From Fistulifera solaris (taxonomy: Eukaryota): 64,000 nucleotides of DNA. The first letter of the stretch is position 1; every line of letters starts with the position of its first letter. The position numbers were made by a program, and so were the translations under genes. Under the pieces are notes generated by a model. It saw nothing but the letters and a program-made list of their open reading frames with translations. It did not search any database and was not told where the DNA came from. Shown here piece after piece: positions 13,901-20,281 of the stretch. The stretch is taken from contig AP026172.1 of NCBI GenBank assembly GCA_030295235.1, positions 372,001 through 436,000 on the forward strand, in the 5' to 3' direction.

Positions 13901-14139
13901 TGATTGTCAACGAACGCGTGACACCAGGAGGCGAGACTATTGCCTGGTTGCGTCTTAATGACGGTCAGTGGGTTCATGACACAGATGACGACGGAATTAA
14001 GGTAATGGCTTCGCACTCGTTGTTTCACCGATCAATCCCCAAACCAAAACGAGAGCAGACGGGTACAGGCACCTTAGACGGGAAGGAAGCGGCTTATAAC
14101 AGAATTGTCTCTCGCTTATTTCACGGCGTAAACAATTAG
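10938..14139 (+). CDS. Large hypothetical protein with repeated SH3b-like modules and Ser-rich linkers
   Basis: Recurring units such as V..GPSF.A, FLRL...HGWL, IKLSDNSGW, RLRGGQGWL and WLRLNDGQWV. Frameshift in the G run at 13496-13500. Confidence 0.6.
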
Positions 14140-14866
14140 ATATTCCGGAGTAATGCGCAGCACATTGACCCTTAGGACGGTTAACATAATTTCCCAGTCG
14201 ATAAAGTTAACACTCTGGAGACTCCGTACGGTAATTTATGCATGGGTGTTAGGTATCGGTACTGGGATGTTTAGCTAGGTATATGGTAGACAAAGATTAA
14301 GGAGACTGGAGACACCAGCCTTTCAAAGTCACAGAAGACAGTCATCACGATGGACAGTAGCGACAAACATTGAGCGCCCCACTATTTTTGTTGTGTCGAT
14401 TTGATTATGAAATACGGGGGCACATCGGTGTAATCTCATCTTTTTAAGGAGTGAGTGGTAAGCACTTCCTTTTGCGTTAAAAAAATTTGTTGGCGTCTCT
14501 TGCAGGCCATCCGTCAACTTTCAAGCATAATCGATGTTACGAAACAAAGCATCCGCCATCACAACTGGACTCTCTAGCTGGAAATAACTTAGTCAGCAAA
14601 GGGCTGCTTTTGCGCATCGGTACTCAGTCCAATAAGTAGAATTGATCTTCAGAGAAGGGAACATAAAAATGTGCGTGGTCGTGTAGTGACCATGACCCAT
14701 GACCATGACCGTACAGTCATTTTCCAGCGGCTTCCTGTTGCATGTTGCAACTGTTCGAAAGAAAGCAAGAACCCTTCCACAATGCCAATACGGGGTAATA
14801 ATTTGCATTGCTTTGCTAGGAATTGGGAACTGTATCGGCCTAGCTCGCCGTCAACCAAAGCCCGTC

Positions 14867-15634
14867 ATGCCTCACCTGTTTTGTCCCAAGAAGACAAAAC
14901 AGGCTCTCGAGGCATCGCCTGATTTGGGTCACATGAGTCCCTCTGTTCAGAAACTGGCGGAAGATGGAAAACTCGACCATATTTACAACATACCTCTATT
15001 GGAACTCAATTGTCAGTTCGGAATTGTTCGAAACCGCACGGACGAACAAATTCCACTCCAAAAGGCAGTAAAACGGGAGCGTTCAAGACAGAAATCAAAA
15101 GTAACTTTGGTGTTCGCCGTTCGGCGCCCTGGGTGACCTGCGTGCCGCGAGCACGGCCAACAGTTGGCTGAGCTCGTGGCGGAAGAACCGTCCACGGCCC
15201 TTCTCGCCACTGTCAAGGAGACAGGTGCCGATGACGAAGCCCTCCTCGACTTCTACGAAAAGTATTTTGCAAGGCATGCCATTTACCAAGACGAAAAGTG
15301 GAAGTTGTATCATGCCATGGGAGGCAGAAAGATCGGTATAGGCAAGGCGGTGCTTGGATCACTGAAATCCTTCAGACGGTATCGAGCGAAGAAAATTCAG
15401 GCGAGCCATAATATCACTACTGTAGATACATGGATGCTGGGTGGTGTCCTCATATTCGATAGACAAGGAATTCTGCAACATGTAGTTGAAGAAGATTTTG
15501 GTGAGCCCCTTGATGTCCACGCAATTAAAAAAGTTATTGAAGACATCAAGAAGAACCAAGAAAATAAGGATACGGGTAATTCAGCTTCACAATTAGCCGA
15601 GGCTGGCAGTGAGAGTCACCTTACCGAATCTTAA
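14867..15634 (+). CDS. Selenoprotein U / PRXL2-like (AhpC/TSA-type thioredoxin fold), copy 1; Sec at TGA 15134-15136
   Basis: ORFs 14699..15136 and 15164..15634 are in the same frame and separated only by TGA in VRRPG-TGA-PACRE, matching the PRXL2/SelU RRPG(C/U)xxCRE motif. C-terminal LGGVLIF. SECIS-like hairpin downstream. 255 aa from ATG 14867. Confidence 0.9.
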
Positions 15635-15792
15635 ACTGTTGATTGGAAATTAGAAGGACAGAAATATATAGCTGTGATGGTCGCTTGTTGATGATGTGTG
15701 AATGATGTCCATACATTTCAAAGTAATGGATTGATCAACACTCCTTGATCGCAGTCACTCGGCATGAGCACGAAGTGCGGTAGTCTGGAATG

Positions 15793-15864
15793 ATCATGGA
15801 ATCTGTGAATGACGGTTGTTCTTTTCATCTTCGATGGAACAACTTGATAAGCATATTTTATGAT
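15793..15864 (+). promoter_or_regulatory. SECIS-like element of SelU copy 1 (type II-like, non-canonical apical U run)
   Basis: Helix I ATCATGGAAT/ATTTTATGAT. Core ATGA at 15809-15812 and TGAT at 15845-15848. Helix II GGTTGTTC/GAACAACT. Apical TTTT plus ministem CATC/GATG. Confidence 0.75.
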
Positions 15865-16264
15865 ACGCCCTGGCTTTTCCGCCTGTGTGAAACTCCATCG
15901 TCGATGCTTGCTTTTGGCATTTGAATCAATGAATCACCTGGTCAGTTGCGTAGTGAATTATGATACTTATAGAATCGTTACTACGGAAGAAATGGCTCAA
16001 GTTCCGTCGGCTTTGAAATAGAGAAAGCTGTACGAGAGGCTGCGATGGCTTTCTACCACGACACTCTGCAACGATTCTCGAACAGCAAACGCACCGCCTA
16101 CGAAACGATGTCACTAGAGAAAACGCTTGTTCTTTTGGGATGCTCCCTTACATACACTAGCCTCATTCTTCCTTTTCCCACCCTGATCATTCATTAAGTC
16201 GATACCAGCACATCGACGTCGAAGAACGGTCAAAGCCAATCCAAGAAGTGGTGAGCAGGTCAGA

Positions 16265-16352
16265 GATGATTAATGAGTGATGAGAGATGATAGATGATTA
16301 ATGAGTAATGAGTGATGAATGAACGGTGAACGGTAAACGGTAAACGAATGAG
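16265..16352. repeat. Low-complexity 7-nt repeat tract between the SelU copies
   Basis: Degenerate gatgaga/gatgagt/aatgagt units followed by (aacggtg/aacggta) repeats. Confidence 0.7.
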
Positions 16353-16780
16353 CTTAAAGTTACTTGTTTTAAAACATTATTGAACATTGAACCTATTAAT
16401 AATATAGGAATTTATGTACACTTAAGTTTCGCTACTCCGTATATATTTTAGATGTCATATGACCCGTGAAGCAGTGTATTCTCTTTCCCAACTCCCAACG
16501 GTTTGCATGGTACATTACAGTCTAGTGTCCCTTAACCTTTTCTGTTTTCCGTACCTGGTAACTGGTAACATGTTACGAGCAGCAGAGAGCAGGGGCATAG
16601 CATAGCGGGCTCAAATACCAGGTACGCAGAAGCAGAACACATCATTTGTGATGCATGATGCCTGAGTCATCCTTTCACCTTCTAACGACTTCGTTTCACT
16701 GCCTTCCATCCGTCTATGGCATAAATTTTTGACTTTTAACTTGTATTTGTAAAGCAGCTTGTGGCGATTCGAGTTCCATC

Positions 16781-17555
16781 ATGCCCAGTCTCGTTTCTCC
16801 GAAGAAGACGAGGCAGGTGGTGGAGGCATCGCTTGATACTAGTCAATTGAGTCCCTCCGTCAAAAAAATTGGTGGAGGATGGAAAGCTTGACCACGTTTA
16901 CAACATTCCTCTATTGGAACTCAATTGTCAGTTCGGAATTGTTCGAAACCGCACGGACGAACAAATTCCACTCCAAAAGGCAGTAAAACGGGAGCGTTCA
17001 AGACAGAAATCAAAAGTAACTTTGGTGTTCGCCGTTCGGCGCCCTGGGTGACCTGCGTGCCGCGAGCACGGCCGACAGCTGGCTGAGCTCGTGGCGGAAG
17101 AATCGTCCGCGGCCCTTATCGCGACGGTAAAGGAGACAGGAGTTGACGACAAAGCCCTCCTCGACTTCTACGAAAAGTATTTTGCGAGGCATGCCATTTA
17201 CAAGGACGAGAAGTGGAAGCTGTATCATGCCATGGGAGGCAGAAAGATCAGTGTCGGCAAGTTAGTGACTGGACTGATGAAATCGTTTCGACGACACCGA
17301 GAGAAGAAAATCGAAGCAAGTCCTAACATTACTGCCGGAGATGGATGGATGCAAGGTGGCGTCCTTATATTCGATAGACGAGGTAATCTGAGACATGTAA
17401 TCGAAGAGGATTATGGCGAGCCCCTCGATACACAAGCCATCAAGAACGTTATTGAAGAAATTAAGCGAAATCAAAGTATCAAGGACACTGATGATTCGGG
17501 ATCGCAATTCGCCGAGGACATCAGTGAGAGCCTCCAGGATACCGAGTCATCTTAA
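16781..17555 (+). CDS. Selenoprotein U / PRXL2-like, copy 2; Sec at TGA 17049-17051
   Basis: ATG 16781 (MPSLVSPKKTRQ, paralogous to MPHLFCPKKTKQ). One extra A in the A7 run at 16862-16868, probably an assembly error. Same RRPG-TGA-PACRE motif, C-terminal QGGVLIF, SECIS downstream. Confidence 0.85.
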
Positions 17556-17618
17556 TTATTGGTTCGAATTCAAACGAAGCGGAGCCTTTGGGTAGCACGA
17601 AGCGAAAGATTGGCATGA

Positions 17619-17686
17619 TCATGGATCTGTGGATGACGGTTTATCTAAGCCTTTTGGTCGAAAAACCTGATGAATTTATTCCATGA
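17619..17686 (+). promoter_or_regulatory. SECIS element of SelU copy 2 (type II)
   Basis: Helix I TCATGGA/TCCATGA. Core ATGA at 17633-17636 and TGAT at 17668-17671. Helix II GGTTTATC/GAAAAACC with one mismatch. Unpaired AA at 17647-17648 and ministem GCC/GGT. Confidence 0.85.
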
Positions 17687-17928
17687 CGCGCCTCCCTTGC
17701 CAACTTTGTGCCGAGCCTATATTATTACTCCAGAGTAGACCAAAATAAGCACGTAGTGTTATTTATTATGAGCGACTTACGACGACTCCGTATCAGTTAG
17801 AATGAACTAGACACTAAAATAATCATCAAGAAAGAACAGTTACATAAGATAACGTTGCTCTTAGTTTTGCAAATGCCCCGAGACTGTCGCTCACACCAAC
17901 GCTCTACCGTATACATGGTATTCTCTTT

Positions 17929-20281
17929 TTAAAGATCGTCATCATCAATGTCGTCATCATCACCATCATTTTCATAAAAGAAGTAATTTCCGCTAGCTTT
18001 TTGCTCCTGATCCTTTTGCGATCCTCGCTTATTGATTCTGTGGGTAGAAGATAAGAAGAAGTTGTGAGTGACGCAACATTTCTCAAATGCAAATGCTTTC
18101 CGAGAGCCATAGAAATCACGCTGGTAGGAAATTAAAACATAAGACTTGAAGCTTTCATAGCCGACACTAGAACAGTGCTCGCGTTTGCGAAAAGGCGTAA
18201 AGAATTGTTTCTCGTCATTCCAGTCAAACACTCACTAGTCACCAATGGAAGACTCACCGAGGACGGAAGTTGACAGGATCACGACGAAATGTAACCTGCA
18301 AGCTCTTGAGAAACGTGTTCATACCCGTGAGAAGCGACTGCGGAGAAGTGGCCGTAGCTTCCACACCAGGCTTTCCCTCGTAGACAACTACTCGATCAGC
18401 CAAATACGTAGCCATGATAAAATCGTGTTCCACGACAAACGCTGTCTTCTTGCTATGCATGATGAAACGCTTAATAACTTTGGCGCAGTTGACGCGCTGC
18501 TCCGAATCCAGATAAGCGCTGGGTTCATCAATCAGATACACATCGGCTGGTTGACCTAGAGCCAAAACGATAGCAAGTCGCTGTAATTCACCGCCCGAAA
18601 GGTTCTGGACACCATTATCGATGATGTTGTCAATTACCAACGGTTTCATCACATCAGATATGAACTGAGGGTGAATGTACGCATCTCGAACGCGTTTGTG
18701 AAGAAGTTGCCGAACCGTGCCCTGGAATTTAGGTGAAATCTTCTGTGGCTTATAGCTTACATTCAGTTCCGGTACTCCAGCCAGCGACGCTTCGTAGTCG
18801 AGTCCCTCAGCTTCAAGCTGAACCTGCTCGTCGCTCTTCAGCAAGCCTGCTAACATTCGCACGAACGTCGTCTTTCCGGTTCCATTTTCTCCAAGAAGCA
18901 CAATAATTTCAGAATCCGTGAATTCGCCCTTTTGAACGTGCAAGATAAACTTCGAGTCATCTCGTGATTGCGTTTTTGTCATGTCTGGATAAGAATAGTT
19001 TTTCAAGATATCGTTCTTGTCGCTACCCGCCTCGGCGCGTTCCGATACCTATTATAAATAAAAATGTTGTAGTCAGCAAACAAATGTCATCTACCGAAAG
19101 CATCGCAACAATATCTCGTGCATACCTTAAACGTCAGTGCATGATCTCGGAATCGCATATTCTCCGACTGAACAAAACCAGCCAAGAAAGCATTGATACC
19201 GTTGCGAACACTATGGGGCATCGTCACTACACCATAACCACCGGCTTGACCGTAAAGAATGCAAATATAATCACTGAGATAGTCCAAAACCGCCAAATCG
19301 TGCTCCACGACCAATACGTAACGCCGATCGGCTCCGGTGCCCTCTAAGATTTTGCGAATCATCGCGGCAGCCGTCAAACGCTGCTTCACATCGAGATACG
19401 ACGACGGTTCATCGAACATGTACACATCACTGACTTGCACAGCGACGGCAGCAATCGCAAATCGCTGCAACTCCCCACCACTCAGTACACCGATCTGACG
19501 ATCGACCAAATGTTCCAATTCAGCTTCTTTCAAAGCCCAGCCCAGCACGTCCCAACCTTCTGCTTCCGTGCGTTCGTCTTTCGATTTGAGTACATCAATG
19601 ACCGTTCCTTTGACGGCGCGGGGGATGTGATCTACATACTGTGGCTTGATGGTGGCTTTCATGGTATCTTCCAAGATGCGGGTAAAGTAGTTTTGCAACT
19701 CACTTCCACGAAAGTACACCAAGATTTCTTCCCAATCCGGAGGCGTCTCGTATTTTCCCAGATTGGGCTTCATTTTTCCTGCCAGGATTTTCAGTGCTGT
19801 CGACTTACCGATACCGTTGGTTCCGACCAAGCCGAGTACCTGCCCCGGACGAGGCATAGGAAGTCGATGCAGCTTGAATGAGTTGGGACCGTAACGGTGT
19901 GTCGTGTTTTTCTCAAGATCTTTCGGGAGGTTGATGATATTAATGGCTTCGAACGGACACTTTTTGACGCAAATACCACAACCTGAAGAAAATGAAAAAA
20001 AGAAATGCAAGAATGGGCAAGATAGGGTAAGAAGGCGTCTTAGAAAGTCAGAAAGGAAGAAGTTGATTTTGCAAACGTACCGATGCAAAGGGGCTCCGAG
20101 ATGAAAGCAATTTTACTCTTCGCGTCGACTTCGATGCACATCTTTCCCAATTTGACGACAGGACACGACTTTTTGCATTCCTGACCACACTTCTTGGGCT
20201 TGCATCTCTCTGCCCCGACGATGGCAATACGTGTCATCGTCTCTTCCTCCTGCTGCTGGCGGCTTTTTTTTTCGGCGCCAT
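17929..20281 (-). CDS. ABCE1: ABCE1/RLI1 ribosome recycling ATPase (4 exons)
   Basis: Fe-S domain [15 protein letters not shown] and [12 protein letters not shown]; two ABC domains ([26 protein letters not shown]). GT-AG introns at 19983-20080, 19049-19125 and 18038-18257. Start at 20281 needs a homopolymer fix at 20264-20272; otherwise 20237. Confidence 0.97.

What the first reader, a model, noticed from the sequence alone, without database searches (positions are those of the whole stretch)
14867..17686. Hidden tandem pair of selenoprotein genes (SelU/PRXL2-like, UxxC) with SECIS elements
Seen in sequence: each paralog appears in the ORF track as two in-frame halves separated by a single TGA (15134-15136 and 17049-17051). 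That TGA occupies the first redox position of the motif VRRPG-x-PAC-RE. Coding similarity between the copies continues for about 160 codons past the TGA, and both 3' UTRs carry an ATGA..GA hairpin. Established knowledge: SelU/PRXL2 thioredoxin-fold proteins occur in UxxC and CxxC forms, and eukaryotic UGA-Sec decoding needs a 3' UTR SECIS. Inference: these are two Sec-containing redox proteins that automated annotation would truncate or call pseudogenes.
Basis: partly seen in the sequence, partly recalled or inferred. Interest (0 to 1): 0.85.

Follow-up and report, generated by a model that had tools for sequence, protein, structure and literature searches.

The report
Two tandem diatom SelU selenoprotein genes
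Two neighbouring diatom genes for a small redox enzyme very probably read an internal UGA "stop" as selenocysteine; this selenoprotein family is already known from diatoms, so the main news is that the public gene model is wrong.

Summary
Two head-to-tail paralogs (A 14867-15634, B 16781-17555, + strand) each carry one in-frame TGA (15134-15136, 17049-17051) at the first position of a conserved ...RRPG-U-PAC-REH motif.

Evidence for selenocysteine:
- The aligned residue is Cys in 35 of 37 database homologs. It is W in the other 2, which I infer is TGA read as Trp.
- Five further N-terminal fragments from other contigs stop exactly at ...RRPG.
- dN/dS over the 165 codons after the TGA is 0.20.
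- Transcript-like contigs run unspliced through the TGA of copy A to a poly(A) tail at 15992, past a kink-turn hairpin.
- Profile and fold searches give human PRXL2B (prostamide/PGF synthase) as best match, and Pfam gives PF13911. This is the SelU/PRXL2 family, published as a selenoprotein in diatoms.

- Copy B has a +1 frameshift in an A7 run (16862-16868). A genomic run shows A6, so this is probably an assembly error.
- Copy B's hairpin is a canonical form-2 SECIS. Copy A's homologous hairpin has UUUU where the AA should be.
- No Rfam SECIS model matched either hairpin.

The public Fistulifera solaris model removes the motif as an 84-nt false intron. Verdict: real, ordinary, a new member of a known kind. 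This scan had already noted another PF13911 selenoprotein gene on another piece of this genome.

The parts
14867..15634 (+). Copy A coding sequence: 255 codons plus TAA, with Sec codon 90
   Evidence: Translated with TGA=U. The start is supported by paralog and ortholog N-termini. Pfam PF13911 scores 24.3 bits, below the 27-bit cutoff.
15134..15136 (+). In-frame TGA of copy A, read as selenocysteine
   Evidence: Aligned to Cys in 35 of 37 homologs and to W in 2. Contigs X2 record 10 and X4 record 22 bridge it with no joint.
15068..15151 (+). 84-nt stretch that the public model (P0003) removes as an intron; it encodes the redox motif and the TGA
   Evidence: X2 record 10 (14962-15325) and X4 record 22 (14768-15168) run through it, and no joint is listed in any run.
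15143..15181 (+). Stable stem-loop (10 bp + 7 bp) starting 6 nt after the TGA of copy A; candidate Sec-redefinition-like element (inferred)
   Evidence: MFE -34.7 kcal/mol over 70 nt, z -3.3. The same stretch in 10 Cys-form homologs gives -7.1 to -26.5.
15793..15864 (+). SECIS-like hairpin of copy A: core ATGA 15809-15812 / TGAT 15845-15848, helix I, helix II and mini-stem, but a UUUU bulge instead of AA
   Evidence: It lies inside the contigs that end in poly(A).
15992..15992 (+). Poly(A) addition site of the copy A transcript
   Evidence: X3 record 17 ends here, followed by 21 A's that are not in the genome (table 7).
14993..15158 (+). 166-nt tract identical to 16908-17073 in copy B; probable gene-conversion tract spanning the TGA
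   Evidence: dS is 0.154 upstream of the TGA and 0.797 downstream. X1 record 2 is exactly this tract, at about twice the flanking depth.
16781..17555 (+). Copy B coding sequence; in the window it is broken by one extra A in the run 16862-16868
   Evidence: The genomic-type run X1 lacks one base at 16862 (table 4). Pfam PF13911 scores 31.8 bits, above the cutoff.
17049..17051 (+). In-frame TGA of copy B, read as selenocysteine
17058..17096 (+). Stem-loop after the TGA of copy B, homologous to 15143-15181
   Evidence: MFE -32.3 kcal/mol, z -1.6.
17619..17686 (+). Canonical form-2 SECIS of copy B: ATGA 17633-17636, AA 17647-17648 ten nt after the core, mini-stem, TGAT 17668-17671

Best explanation
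These are two tandem, head-to-tail paralogous genes of a pennate diatom; the public protein that matches is named Fistulifera solaris. They encode thioredoxin-fold SelU/PRXL2-type oxidoreductases with a U-x-x-C active site. The in-frame UGA is decoded as selenocysteine, directed by a kink-turn SECIS hairpin in the 3' UTR, which in eukaryotes is bound by SBP2 and recruits eEFSec and Sec-tRNA (established knowledge). Sec then sits at the N-terminus of the helix that follows the central beta-strand, as the attacking residue of a selenenylsulfide/CxxC-type redox centre.

Shown here: the TGA and its context, Cys in homologs, constraint after the TGA, the unspliced and polyadenylated copy A transcript carrying the hairpin, and the fold.

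Inferred: actual Sec insertion, SECIS function, and the enzymatic substrate.

Copy B's frameshift is most likely a homopolymer error of the assembly. The two copies have exchanged a 166-nt tract around the TGA by gene conversion.
For: 1. TGA at the catalytic position. Of 37 database homologs aligned, 35 have Cys and 2 have W at the column. These were 37 of the 46 hits; 9 partial or mis-modelled rows were left out.
2. In a search for shorter proteins, 5 of 6 hits are N-terminal fragments that end exactly at ...RRPG. Three of them share the longest-contig length (33693, 11581, 4880) listed for the C-terminal halves P0005, P0006 and P0007, which I read as the same contigs.
3. dN/dS is 0.197 over 165 codons after the TGA (dS 0.80), with 54 of 108 differences at third positions.
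4. Contigs X2 record 10 (14962-15325) and X4 record 22 (14768-15168) pass through the TGA and the annotated 'intron'. No joints are listed in any run. X3 record 17 runs to 15992 and continues with 21 non-genomic A's.
5. Copy B's hairpin meets the published NTGA_AA_GA pattern: spacing 10 and 20 nt, upper-stem energy -8.5 kcal/mol (criteria read in PMC2375036).
6. The two hairpins are 84% identical in otherwise poorly alignable UTRs. 31 of 32 pair cells are paired, with 1 compensatory and 3 one-sided changes.
7. Family: PF13911; PDB profile hit PRXL2B at E 3e-10, with CxxC aligned on the motif; AF2 model pLDDT 86.9 with strand 79-85, U90 and helix 91-106; top Foldseek hits are PRXL2B.
8. Literature: T. 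pseudonana has two SelU selenoprotein genes (PMC2375036, passages). SELENOU is among the most widespread Sec proteins of algae (PMC7539508, passages).
Against: - No Rfam SECIS family matched either UTR, even at E up to 10 on stretches of 205-361 nt.
- Copy A's hairpin has UUUU where the AA (or CC) motif is expected. The copy A UTR (15635-16151) contains no candidate that meets the published pattern.
- In the window as given, copy B is frameshifted between its ATG and the TGA.
- The two TGAs lie in one identical conversion tract, so they count as one event.
- The W in P0004 and P0009 is only inferred to be TGA; their DNA could not be fetched.
- The runs X2-X4 are only guessed to be RNA by the tool. 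I infer RNA from the poly(A) tail, the gene-limited cover and an exon-like piece with loose ends.
- With two sequences the covariation has no statistical weight (245 of 500 shuffles reach it).
- The Sec machinery could not be looked for, because no genome is held.
Confidence: 0.88

Rival explanations
1. Only one copy is a working selenoprotein gene. Either copy B is a real pseudogene (a true frameshift), or copy A no longer inserts Sec because its SECIS lost the AA motif and yields an 89-residue truncated product.
For: There is an A7 frameshift in the window. Copy A has a UUUU bulge and no canonical candidate anywhere in its UTR. No Rfam SECIS hit was found.
Against: - The genomic-type run X1 shows one base fewer in the run, which restores a frame matching copy A and P0050/P0051.
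- All three indel differences between X1 and the window lie in homopolymers of 5 or more bases.
- Pairwise dN/dS of 0.20 at dS 0.80 leaves little room for a long neutral phase in either lineage.
- Copy A's hairpin keeps core, helix I and helix II nearly unchanged and is in the polyadenylated transcript.
Confidence: 0.2
2. The UGA is read through by a near-cognate tRNA (as Trp, Cys or Arg), or the genes are nonsense-mutated relics whose mutation spread by gene conversion. No selenocysteine is involved.
For: The two TGAs sit in one identical tract. No SECIS family was detected by Rfam. Sec insertion was not shown experimentally.
Against: - A stop at exactly this codon recurs in 5 further fragments of 76-88% identity, and W occurs in 2 homologs of 70% and 46% identity. 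It is therefore old and kept.
- It replaces the catalytic Cys, not a random residue.
- The sequence after it is under constraint.
- A canonical SECIS follows copy B.
- The family is a documented selenoprotein in diatoms (PMC2375036).
Confidence: 0.05
3. The public model is right: 15068-15151 is a real intron and the protein lacks the redox motif.
For: The stretch starts with GT, ends with AG and is a multiple of three in length.
Against: - Contigs of X2 and X4 run through it, and no joint is reported in any of the 4 runs.
- The stretch encodes the most conserved part of the family, including invariant residues.
- It is 100% identical to copy B.
Confidence: 0.02

Closest known systems
SelU / SELENOU (PRXL2, FAM213; Pfam PF13911 AhpC-TSA_2) selenoproteins of algae, including the two SelU genes of Thalassiosira pseudonana (PMC2375036) and SELENOU in the algal survey (PMC7539508)
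   Same: Thioredoxin/peroxiredoxin-like fold. Sec at the first position of a UxxC motif that is CxxC in Cys forms. 3' UTR SECIS. Occurs in diatoms, and tandem SELENOU pairs are reported in E. huxleyi (PMC7539508, passage).
   Different: These particular genes are mis-modelled in the public record (P0003). Copy A's SECIS lacks the AA motif. A strong stem-loop follows the UGA. I could not see whether these genes are already listed in that paper's supplement or database.
Human PRXL2B, prostamide/prostaglandin F synthase (PDB 9us9, 9usa)
   Same: Best sequence-profile match (E 3e-10) and best fold match. Its CxxC aligns on U-P-A-C.
   Different: Only about 20% identity, and it has Cys rather than Sec. 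The diatom protein has a longer N-terminus and an acidic C-terminal tail. Substrate specificity cannot be transferred.
Eukaryotic form-2 SECIS element (AUGA core, AAR bulge, GA; PMC2746813, PMC8704476, PMC3753652)
   Same: Copy B has the AUGA/UGAU core, helix I, helix II, AA 10 nt after the core and a mini-stem. Copy A has the same core and helices.
   Different: Copy A has UUUU in the bulge. Neither hairpin is picked up by the Rfam SECIS models.
Selenocysteine redefinition elements (SRE) next to UGA in SELENON/SELENOT mRNAs (PMC8704476, passage)
   Same: A stable stem-loop begins a few nucleotides after the UGA.
   Different: Only a structural resemblance in two paralogs. There is no comparative or functional test, and the high G+C content of the stretch is a confounder.

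Membership tests
SelU/PRXL2 family (Pfam PF13911, AhpC-TSA_2) | Match to the family profile above the curated cutoff | tested here: met
   Copy B scores 31.8 bits against a cutoff of 27. Copy A scores 24.3 bits (E 4e-5), just below the cutoff. 44 of the 46 homologs listed carry PF13911.
SelU/PRXL2 family (Pfam PF13911, AhpC-TSA_2) | Thioredoxin-like fold with the redox motif at the N-terminus of the helix after a beta-strand | tested here: met
   AF2 model: pLDDT 86.9, strand 79-85, position 90, helix 91-106. The Foldseek top hits are PRXL2B chains, E 1e-8 to 2e-6.
SelU/PRXL2 family (Pfam PF13911, AhpC-TSA_2) | UxxC/CxxC motif, with Sec or Cys at the first position | tested here: met
   35 of 37 homologs have Cys and 2 have W at the column. 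The second Cys is invariant. The PRXL2B CxxC aligns on the motif.
Eukaryotic selenoprotein gene | In-frame UGA kept in the mature mRNA | tested here: met
   For copy A, contigs bridge the TGA with no joints, and the transcript is polyadenylated at 15992. That the runs are RNA is inferred, not on record.
Eukaryotic selenoprotein gene | Coding constraint continues after the UGA | tested here: met
   dN/dS is 0.197 over 165 codons.
Eukaryotic selenoprotein gene | 3' UTR SECIS with AUGA/GA kink-turn core and flanking helices | tested here: met
   Both copies have it. Core to UGA distance is 675 nt in A and 584 nt in B (from the coordinates).
Eukaryotic selenoprotein gene | Unpaired AA (or CC) 10-13 nt after the core | tested here: inconclusive
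   Met in copy B (AA at +10). Not met in copy A (UUUU), and there is no alternative candidate in 15635-16151.
Eukaryotic selenoprotein gene | Match to a curated SECIS covariance model | tested here: not met
   No Rfam SECIS family at E up to 10. SECISearch3 was not available.
Eukaryotic selenoprotein gene | Sec machinery in the genome (tRNA-Sec, eEFSec, SBP2, PSTK, SepSecS, SPS2) | not testable with these tools
   No genome is held for this window. The only tRNA in the window is tRNA-Ala.
Eukaryotic selenoprotein gene | Selenium actually incorporated | not testable with these tools
   Needs 75Se labelling or mass spectrometry.
Selenocysteine redefinition element (SRE) | Conserved stem-loop shortly after the UGA that stimulates recoding | tested here: inconclusive
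   The stem-loop is present in both copies (z -3.3 and -1.6). It is much more stable than the same stretch in 10 Cys-form homologs. Function and wider conservation were not tested.

The most novel reading that the evidence does not exclude
Copy A is a fully working selenoprotein gene whose SECIS has no apical AA or CC (a UUUU bulge instead). Recoding is helped by a strong 17-bp stem-loop that starts 6 nt after the UGA and is kept nearly identical in both paralogs. This would show that diatom Sec insertion tolerates, or compensates for, loss of a SECIS motif regarded as conserved.
Probability: 0.3. Interest if true: 0.5.

Novelty: new member of a known kind. Interest (0 to 1): 0.3.

Why it matters
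The practical value is in annotation. The public model of copy A deletes the catalytic motif as a false intron and starts at an upstream ATG. Related diatom records show the same gene split or skipped at the same codon. Any proteome, redox or selenium-use analysis of this oil-producing diatom therefore misses or mis-describes these enzymes.

Biologically this adds one more tandem SelU pair to a well-documented algal selenoprotein family. The only points that go beyond the ordinary are the AA-less SECIS of the expressed copy and the stem-loop next to the UGA. Both can be tested with reporters.

Tried and rejected
- **Rfam scans.** Scans of 14000-18500, 15635-15995 and 17556-17760 at E up to 10 gave no SECIS family, only weak C/D-box snoRNA-like and other chance hits.
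- **Metagenome scan for relatives.** The tool used the peptide pattern PGCxxCREH, so all 16 loci are Cys forms.
- **Degenerate DNA pattern with TGA at the site.** One locus was found in viral contigs and 29 in genome contigs. By tblastn, 0 of these 30 loci is a homolog; they are chance matches.
- **The look-up of sequencing runs.** No RNA holder is listed; all 4 runs are from one study.
- **Cover of copy B in runs X2-X4.** No piece identical to copy B is among the listed records. Only pieces with 12 of 210 and 52 of 655 other letters are listed, and 11 records were not shown. This is no evidence on copy B's expression.
- **The differing piece X4 record 24 (17053-17707).** It is probably a second genomic version of copy B. 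Its contig reaches through the hairpin region.
- **Alternative SECIS candidates in the copy A UTR.** For example, the hairpin at 15702-15734 has AA 14 nt from the core and a short helix II. It fails the published spacing and has no counterpart in copy B.
- **Control downstream of Cys-form genes.** The crude hairpin scanner gave 0 hits in 12,019 nt behind the 16 loci. About 0.7 would be expected by chance, so the control is weak.
- **Loose published pattern alone.** It hits 2.1 sites per kb per strand in the window, so passing it is not specific by itself.
- **Other scanner hits.** The hits on the minus strand at 31427-31398 and 19773-19728 have, respectively, no upstream minus-strand gene or lie beside or inside an ABC ATPase gene. 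I take them as chance.
- **Supplement of PMC7539508.** It could not be read. It may already list these genes.
- **Genome-wide search for Sec machinery.** No genome is held.
Full report
**What is in the sequence.**
On the + strand lie two head-to-tail paralogs.
- Copy A runs from ATG 14867 to TAA 15632-15634, with a single in-frame TGA at 15134-15136 (codon 90).
- Copy B has its TGA at 17049-17051 and TAA at 17553-17555.
- Both read ...VFAVRRPG-TGA-PACREHG.
- The DNA alignment shows that similarity starts at the ATGs (14867 and 16781), runs through the coding region and decays in the 3' UTRs, except for one island around a hairpin.

1. In the window, copy B's ATG (16781) is out of frame with its TGA. 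Relative to copy A there is one extra base in an A7 run at 16862-16868. Read from the ATG, the frame stops after 36 codons.
2. A 166-nt stretch, 14993-15158, is identical to 16908-17073 and spans the TGA. Elsewhere the copies have dS 0.80. Upstream of the TGA dS is only 0.154. I read this as a gene-conversion tract, so the two TGAs are one observation, not two.

**Is the TGA a Sec codon?**
- *Homologs.* A homolog search gave 46 proteins. I aligned 37 of them with the two window copies. I left out 9 rows: P0003, P0005-7, P0040 and P0042-45, which are fragments or models that skip the motif. At the TGA column 35 of the 37 have Cys and 2 (P0004, 70% identical; P0009, 46%) have W. I infer that W comes from a gene caller reading TGA as Trp; I could not fetch their DNA.
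- *Fragments.* A second search among shorter proteins gave 6 hits. Five of them are N-terminal fragments from five contigs, all ending exactly at ...RRPG. Three share the longest-contig length listed for the C-terminal halves P0005, P0006 and P0007, which I read as the same contigs. The stop at this codon is therefore old and kept in several relatives.
- *Other diatoms.* Two Seminavis robusta models (P0040, P0044) skip or start after the motif in the same way.
- *Constraint.* After the TGA, dN/dS between A and B is 0.197 over 165 codons, with 54 of 108 differences at third positions.
- *Tree.* On a tree of the 39 rows, the four TGA-bearing rows fall in one supported clade of six together with two Cys forms. 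At least one Sec/Cys switch therefore occurred there. Sec forms are under-represented in protein databases, so this count is a floor.

**Transcript evidence.**
Four coded runs of one study hold the stretch; none is on record as RNA.
- Laid on 14300-18300, X1 covers every bin at even depth and its contigs total 51.6 million letters. I take it as genomic DNA.
- X2-X4 total 12-15 million letters and cover only gene bodies.
- X3 record 17 (15307-15992) continues with 21 A's absent from the genome.
- X3 record 20 is an exon-like piece with unmatched letters on both sides.
- I therefore take X2-X4 as cDNA. This is an inference.
- X2 record 10 (14962-15325) and X4 record 22 (14768-15168) run through the TGA without change, and no joints are listed in any run.
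- So the copy A mRNA keeps the TGA, is unspliced from about 14770 to 15992, and carries about 360 nt of 3' UTR that includes the hairpin.

**The public model.**
P0003, named Fistulifera solaris FisN_6Lh286 by its source, equals the window's translation from ATG 14705. It omits 15068-15151, an 84-nt GT...AG stretch that encodes the 28 codons around the TGA. The contigs contradict that intron. The upstream ATG is not supported by the paralog and ortholog N-termini, which start at the position of 14867. The prediction that annotation would fail is borne out.

**Copy B's frameshift.**
- The X1 contig (record 4, depth 16.8) lacks one base at 16862.
- With six A's the frame from ATG 16781 continues into ...SPSVKK-LVEDGKLDH..., matching copy A and P0050/P0051.
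- The other two indel differences between X1 and the window (14384 and 14479) also lie in homopolymers, T5 and A7.
- I therefore think the A7 is an assembly error (about 0.7). A real frameshift allele is not excluded.

**The SECIS elements.**
- *Copy B (17619-17686).* It has helix I (UCAUGGA/UCCAUGA), core AUGA 17633-17636 opposite UGAU 17668-17671, helix II, an unpaired UAA bulge with AA 10 nt after the core, and a 3-bp mini-stem. This meets the NTGA_AA_GA pattern, spacings and upper-stem energy used by Lobanov et al. (criteria read in passages of PMC2375036). It has the form-2 architecture described in PMC2746813 and PMC8704476 (passages).
- *Copy A (15793-15864).* It is the homologous hairpin, with the same core (15809-15812 / 15845-15848), a longer helix I, a 9-pair helix II and a 4-bp mini-stem. 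The bulge is UUUU. No AA/CC candidate exists anywhere in 15635-16151.
- *Comparison.* Across the two hairpins, 31 of 32 pair cells are standard pairs, against 50% or less when the partner is slid. There is one compensatory change (G-C to U-A) and three one-sided changes (G-U to G-C). With two sequences this has no statistical weight.
- *Specificity.* A crude scanner for ATGA...GA hairpins with both helices found 7 sites in 128 kb, 3 of them with AA. The two UTR hairpins are among the 7.
- *Against.* No Rfam SECIS model matched, even in narrow scans.
- SECISearch3 was not available.

**A stem-loop next to the UGA.**
Six nucleotides after each TGA begins a 10 bp + 7 bp stem-loop (15143-15181 and 17058-17096).
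- Over 70 nt from the TGA, the MFE is -34.7 kcal/mol (z -3.3) for A and -32.3 (z -1.6) for B.
- The same stretch in 10 distinct Cys-form homologs gives -7.1 to -26.5 kcal/mol (z -2.7 to +1.2).
- This resembles the Sec redefinition elements described for SELENON and SELENOT (PMC8704476, passage).
- However, the stretch is also more G+C-rich (0.67-0.69 against 0.44-0.57), and the two copies are not independent. I list it as a lead only.

**Family.**
- Pfam PF13911 (AhpC-TSA_2) matches copy B above the cutoff and copy A just below.
- A profile of the 39 sequences finds human PRXL2B (prostamide/prostaglandin F synthase, 9us9) at E 3e-10, with its CxxC on the motif.
- The AlphaFold model (pLDDT 86.9) places position 90 between strand 79-85 and helix 91-106.
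- Its best structural matches are the PRXL2B chains, followed by peroxiredoxins.
- That PF13911/PRXL2 is the SelU family is my recollection; no call names it so.
- I see no N-terminal hydrophobic targeting signal, by reading only.
- The neighbours are an ABC ATPase gene on the minus strand and ORFs without Pfam matches. They suggest no functional link.

**Comparison with what is known.**
- SelU occurs as a selenoprotein in fish, birds and unicellular eukaryotes. Lobanov et al. list two SelU genes among 16 selenoproteins of the diatom T. pseudonana (PMC2375036, passages).
- Jiang et al. rank SELENOU among the four most widespread Sec proteins in 36 algal genomes. They report 20-44 selenoprotein genes in diatoms and a tandem SELENOU pair in E. 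huxleyi. They mention F. solaris once, for another family (PMC7539508, passages).
- Their supplement, which may list these very genes, could not be read.
- The discovery paper of SelU (Castellano et al. 2004) is recalled, not seen.
- Earlier notes of this scan report another PF13911 selenoprotein gene and a SelM-like gene with odd SECIS hairpins elsewhere in this genome. I did not test them.

**Verdict.**
These are real SelU-type selenoprotein genes (confidence about 0.88), mis-modelled in the public record and belonging to a known family: a new member of a known kind. The AA-less SECIS of the expressed copy and the UGA-proximal stem-loop are the only unusual points. They are untested.

Noticed in passing
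window 14993-15158 and 16908-17073: A 166-nt tract is identical between the paralogs although dS elsewhere is 0.80. This is probably gene conversion centred on the N-terminal domain and the Sec codon. The genomic run's contig for exactly this tract has about twice the flanking depth.
   Followed up: partly
window 15143-15181 and 17058-17096: A strong stem-loop starts 6 nt after each UGA. It is far more stable than the same stretch in 10 Cys-form homologs. It may be an SRE-like recoding helper or just a by-product of G+C-rich conserved codons.
   Followed up: partly
window 14384, 14479, 16862: All three indel differences between the window and the genomic-type run X1 lie in homopolymers (T5, A7, A7). 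This suggests homopolymer-length errors in the assembly that could break other genes too.
   Followed up: partly
window 14782-14922: An out-of-frame ATG at 14782 opens a reading frame of about 47 codons that overlaps the main ATG at 14867. Transcript-like contigs start at 14768, 14782 and 14809, so a uORF may or may not be on the mRNA.
   Followed up: no
window 16240-16350: The spacer between the two genes holds a short-period repetitive stretch (GATGA/TGAGT and ACGGTAA-type units). Low-depth transcript-like contigs cover 16133-16360.
   Followed up: no
window 15992-16151: One run (X2 record 12) has a contig that continues to 16151, beyond the poly(A) site seen in X3. This may be a longer 3' UTR isoform or read-through.
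   Followed up: no
window 17876-18038 (minus-strand gene) and 18254-19048: A contig piece with unmatched letters on both sides at 17876-18038 looks like an internal exon of a minus-strand gene. Next to it lies an ABC-ATPase gene (PF00005).
   Followed up: partly
proteins P0040 and P0044 (Seminavis robusta): Public models of two relatives in another diatom skip or start after the redox motif. This is the same annotation failure as in P0003 and suggests that Sec forms exist there too.
   Followed up: no
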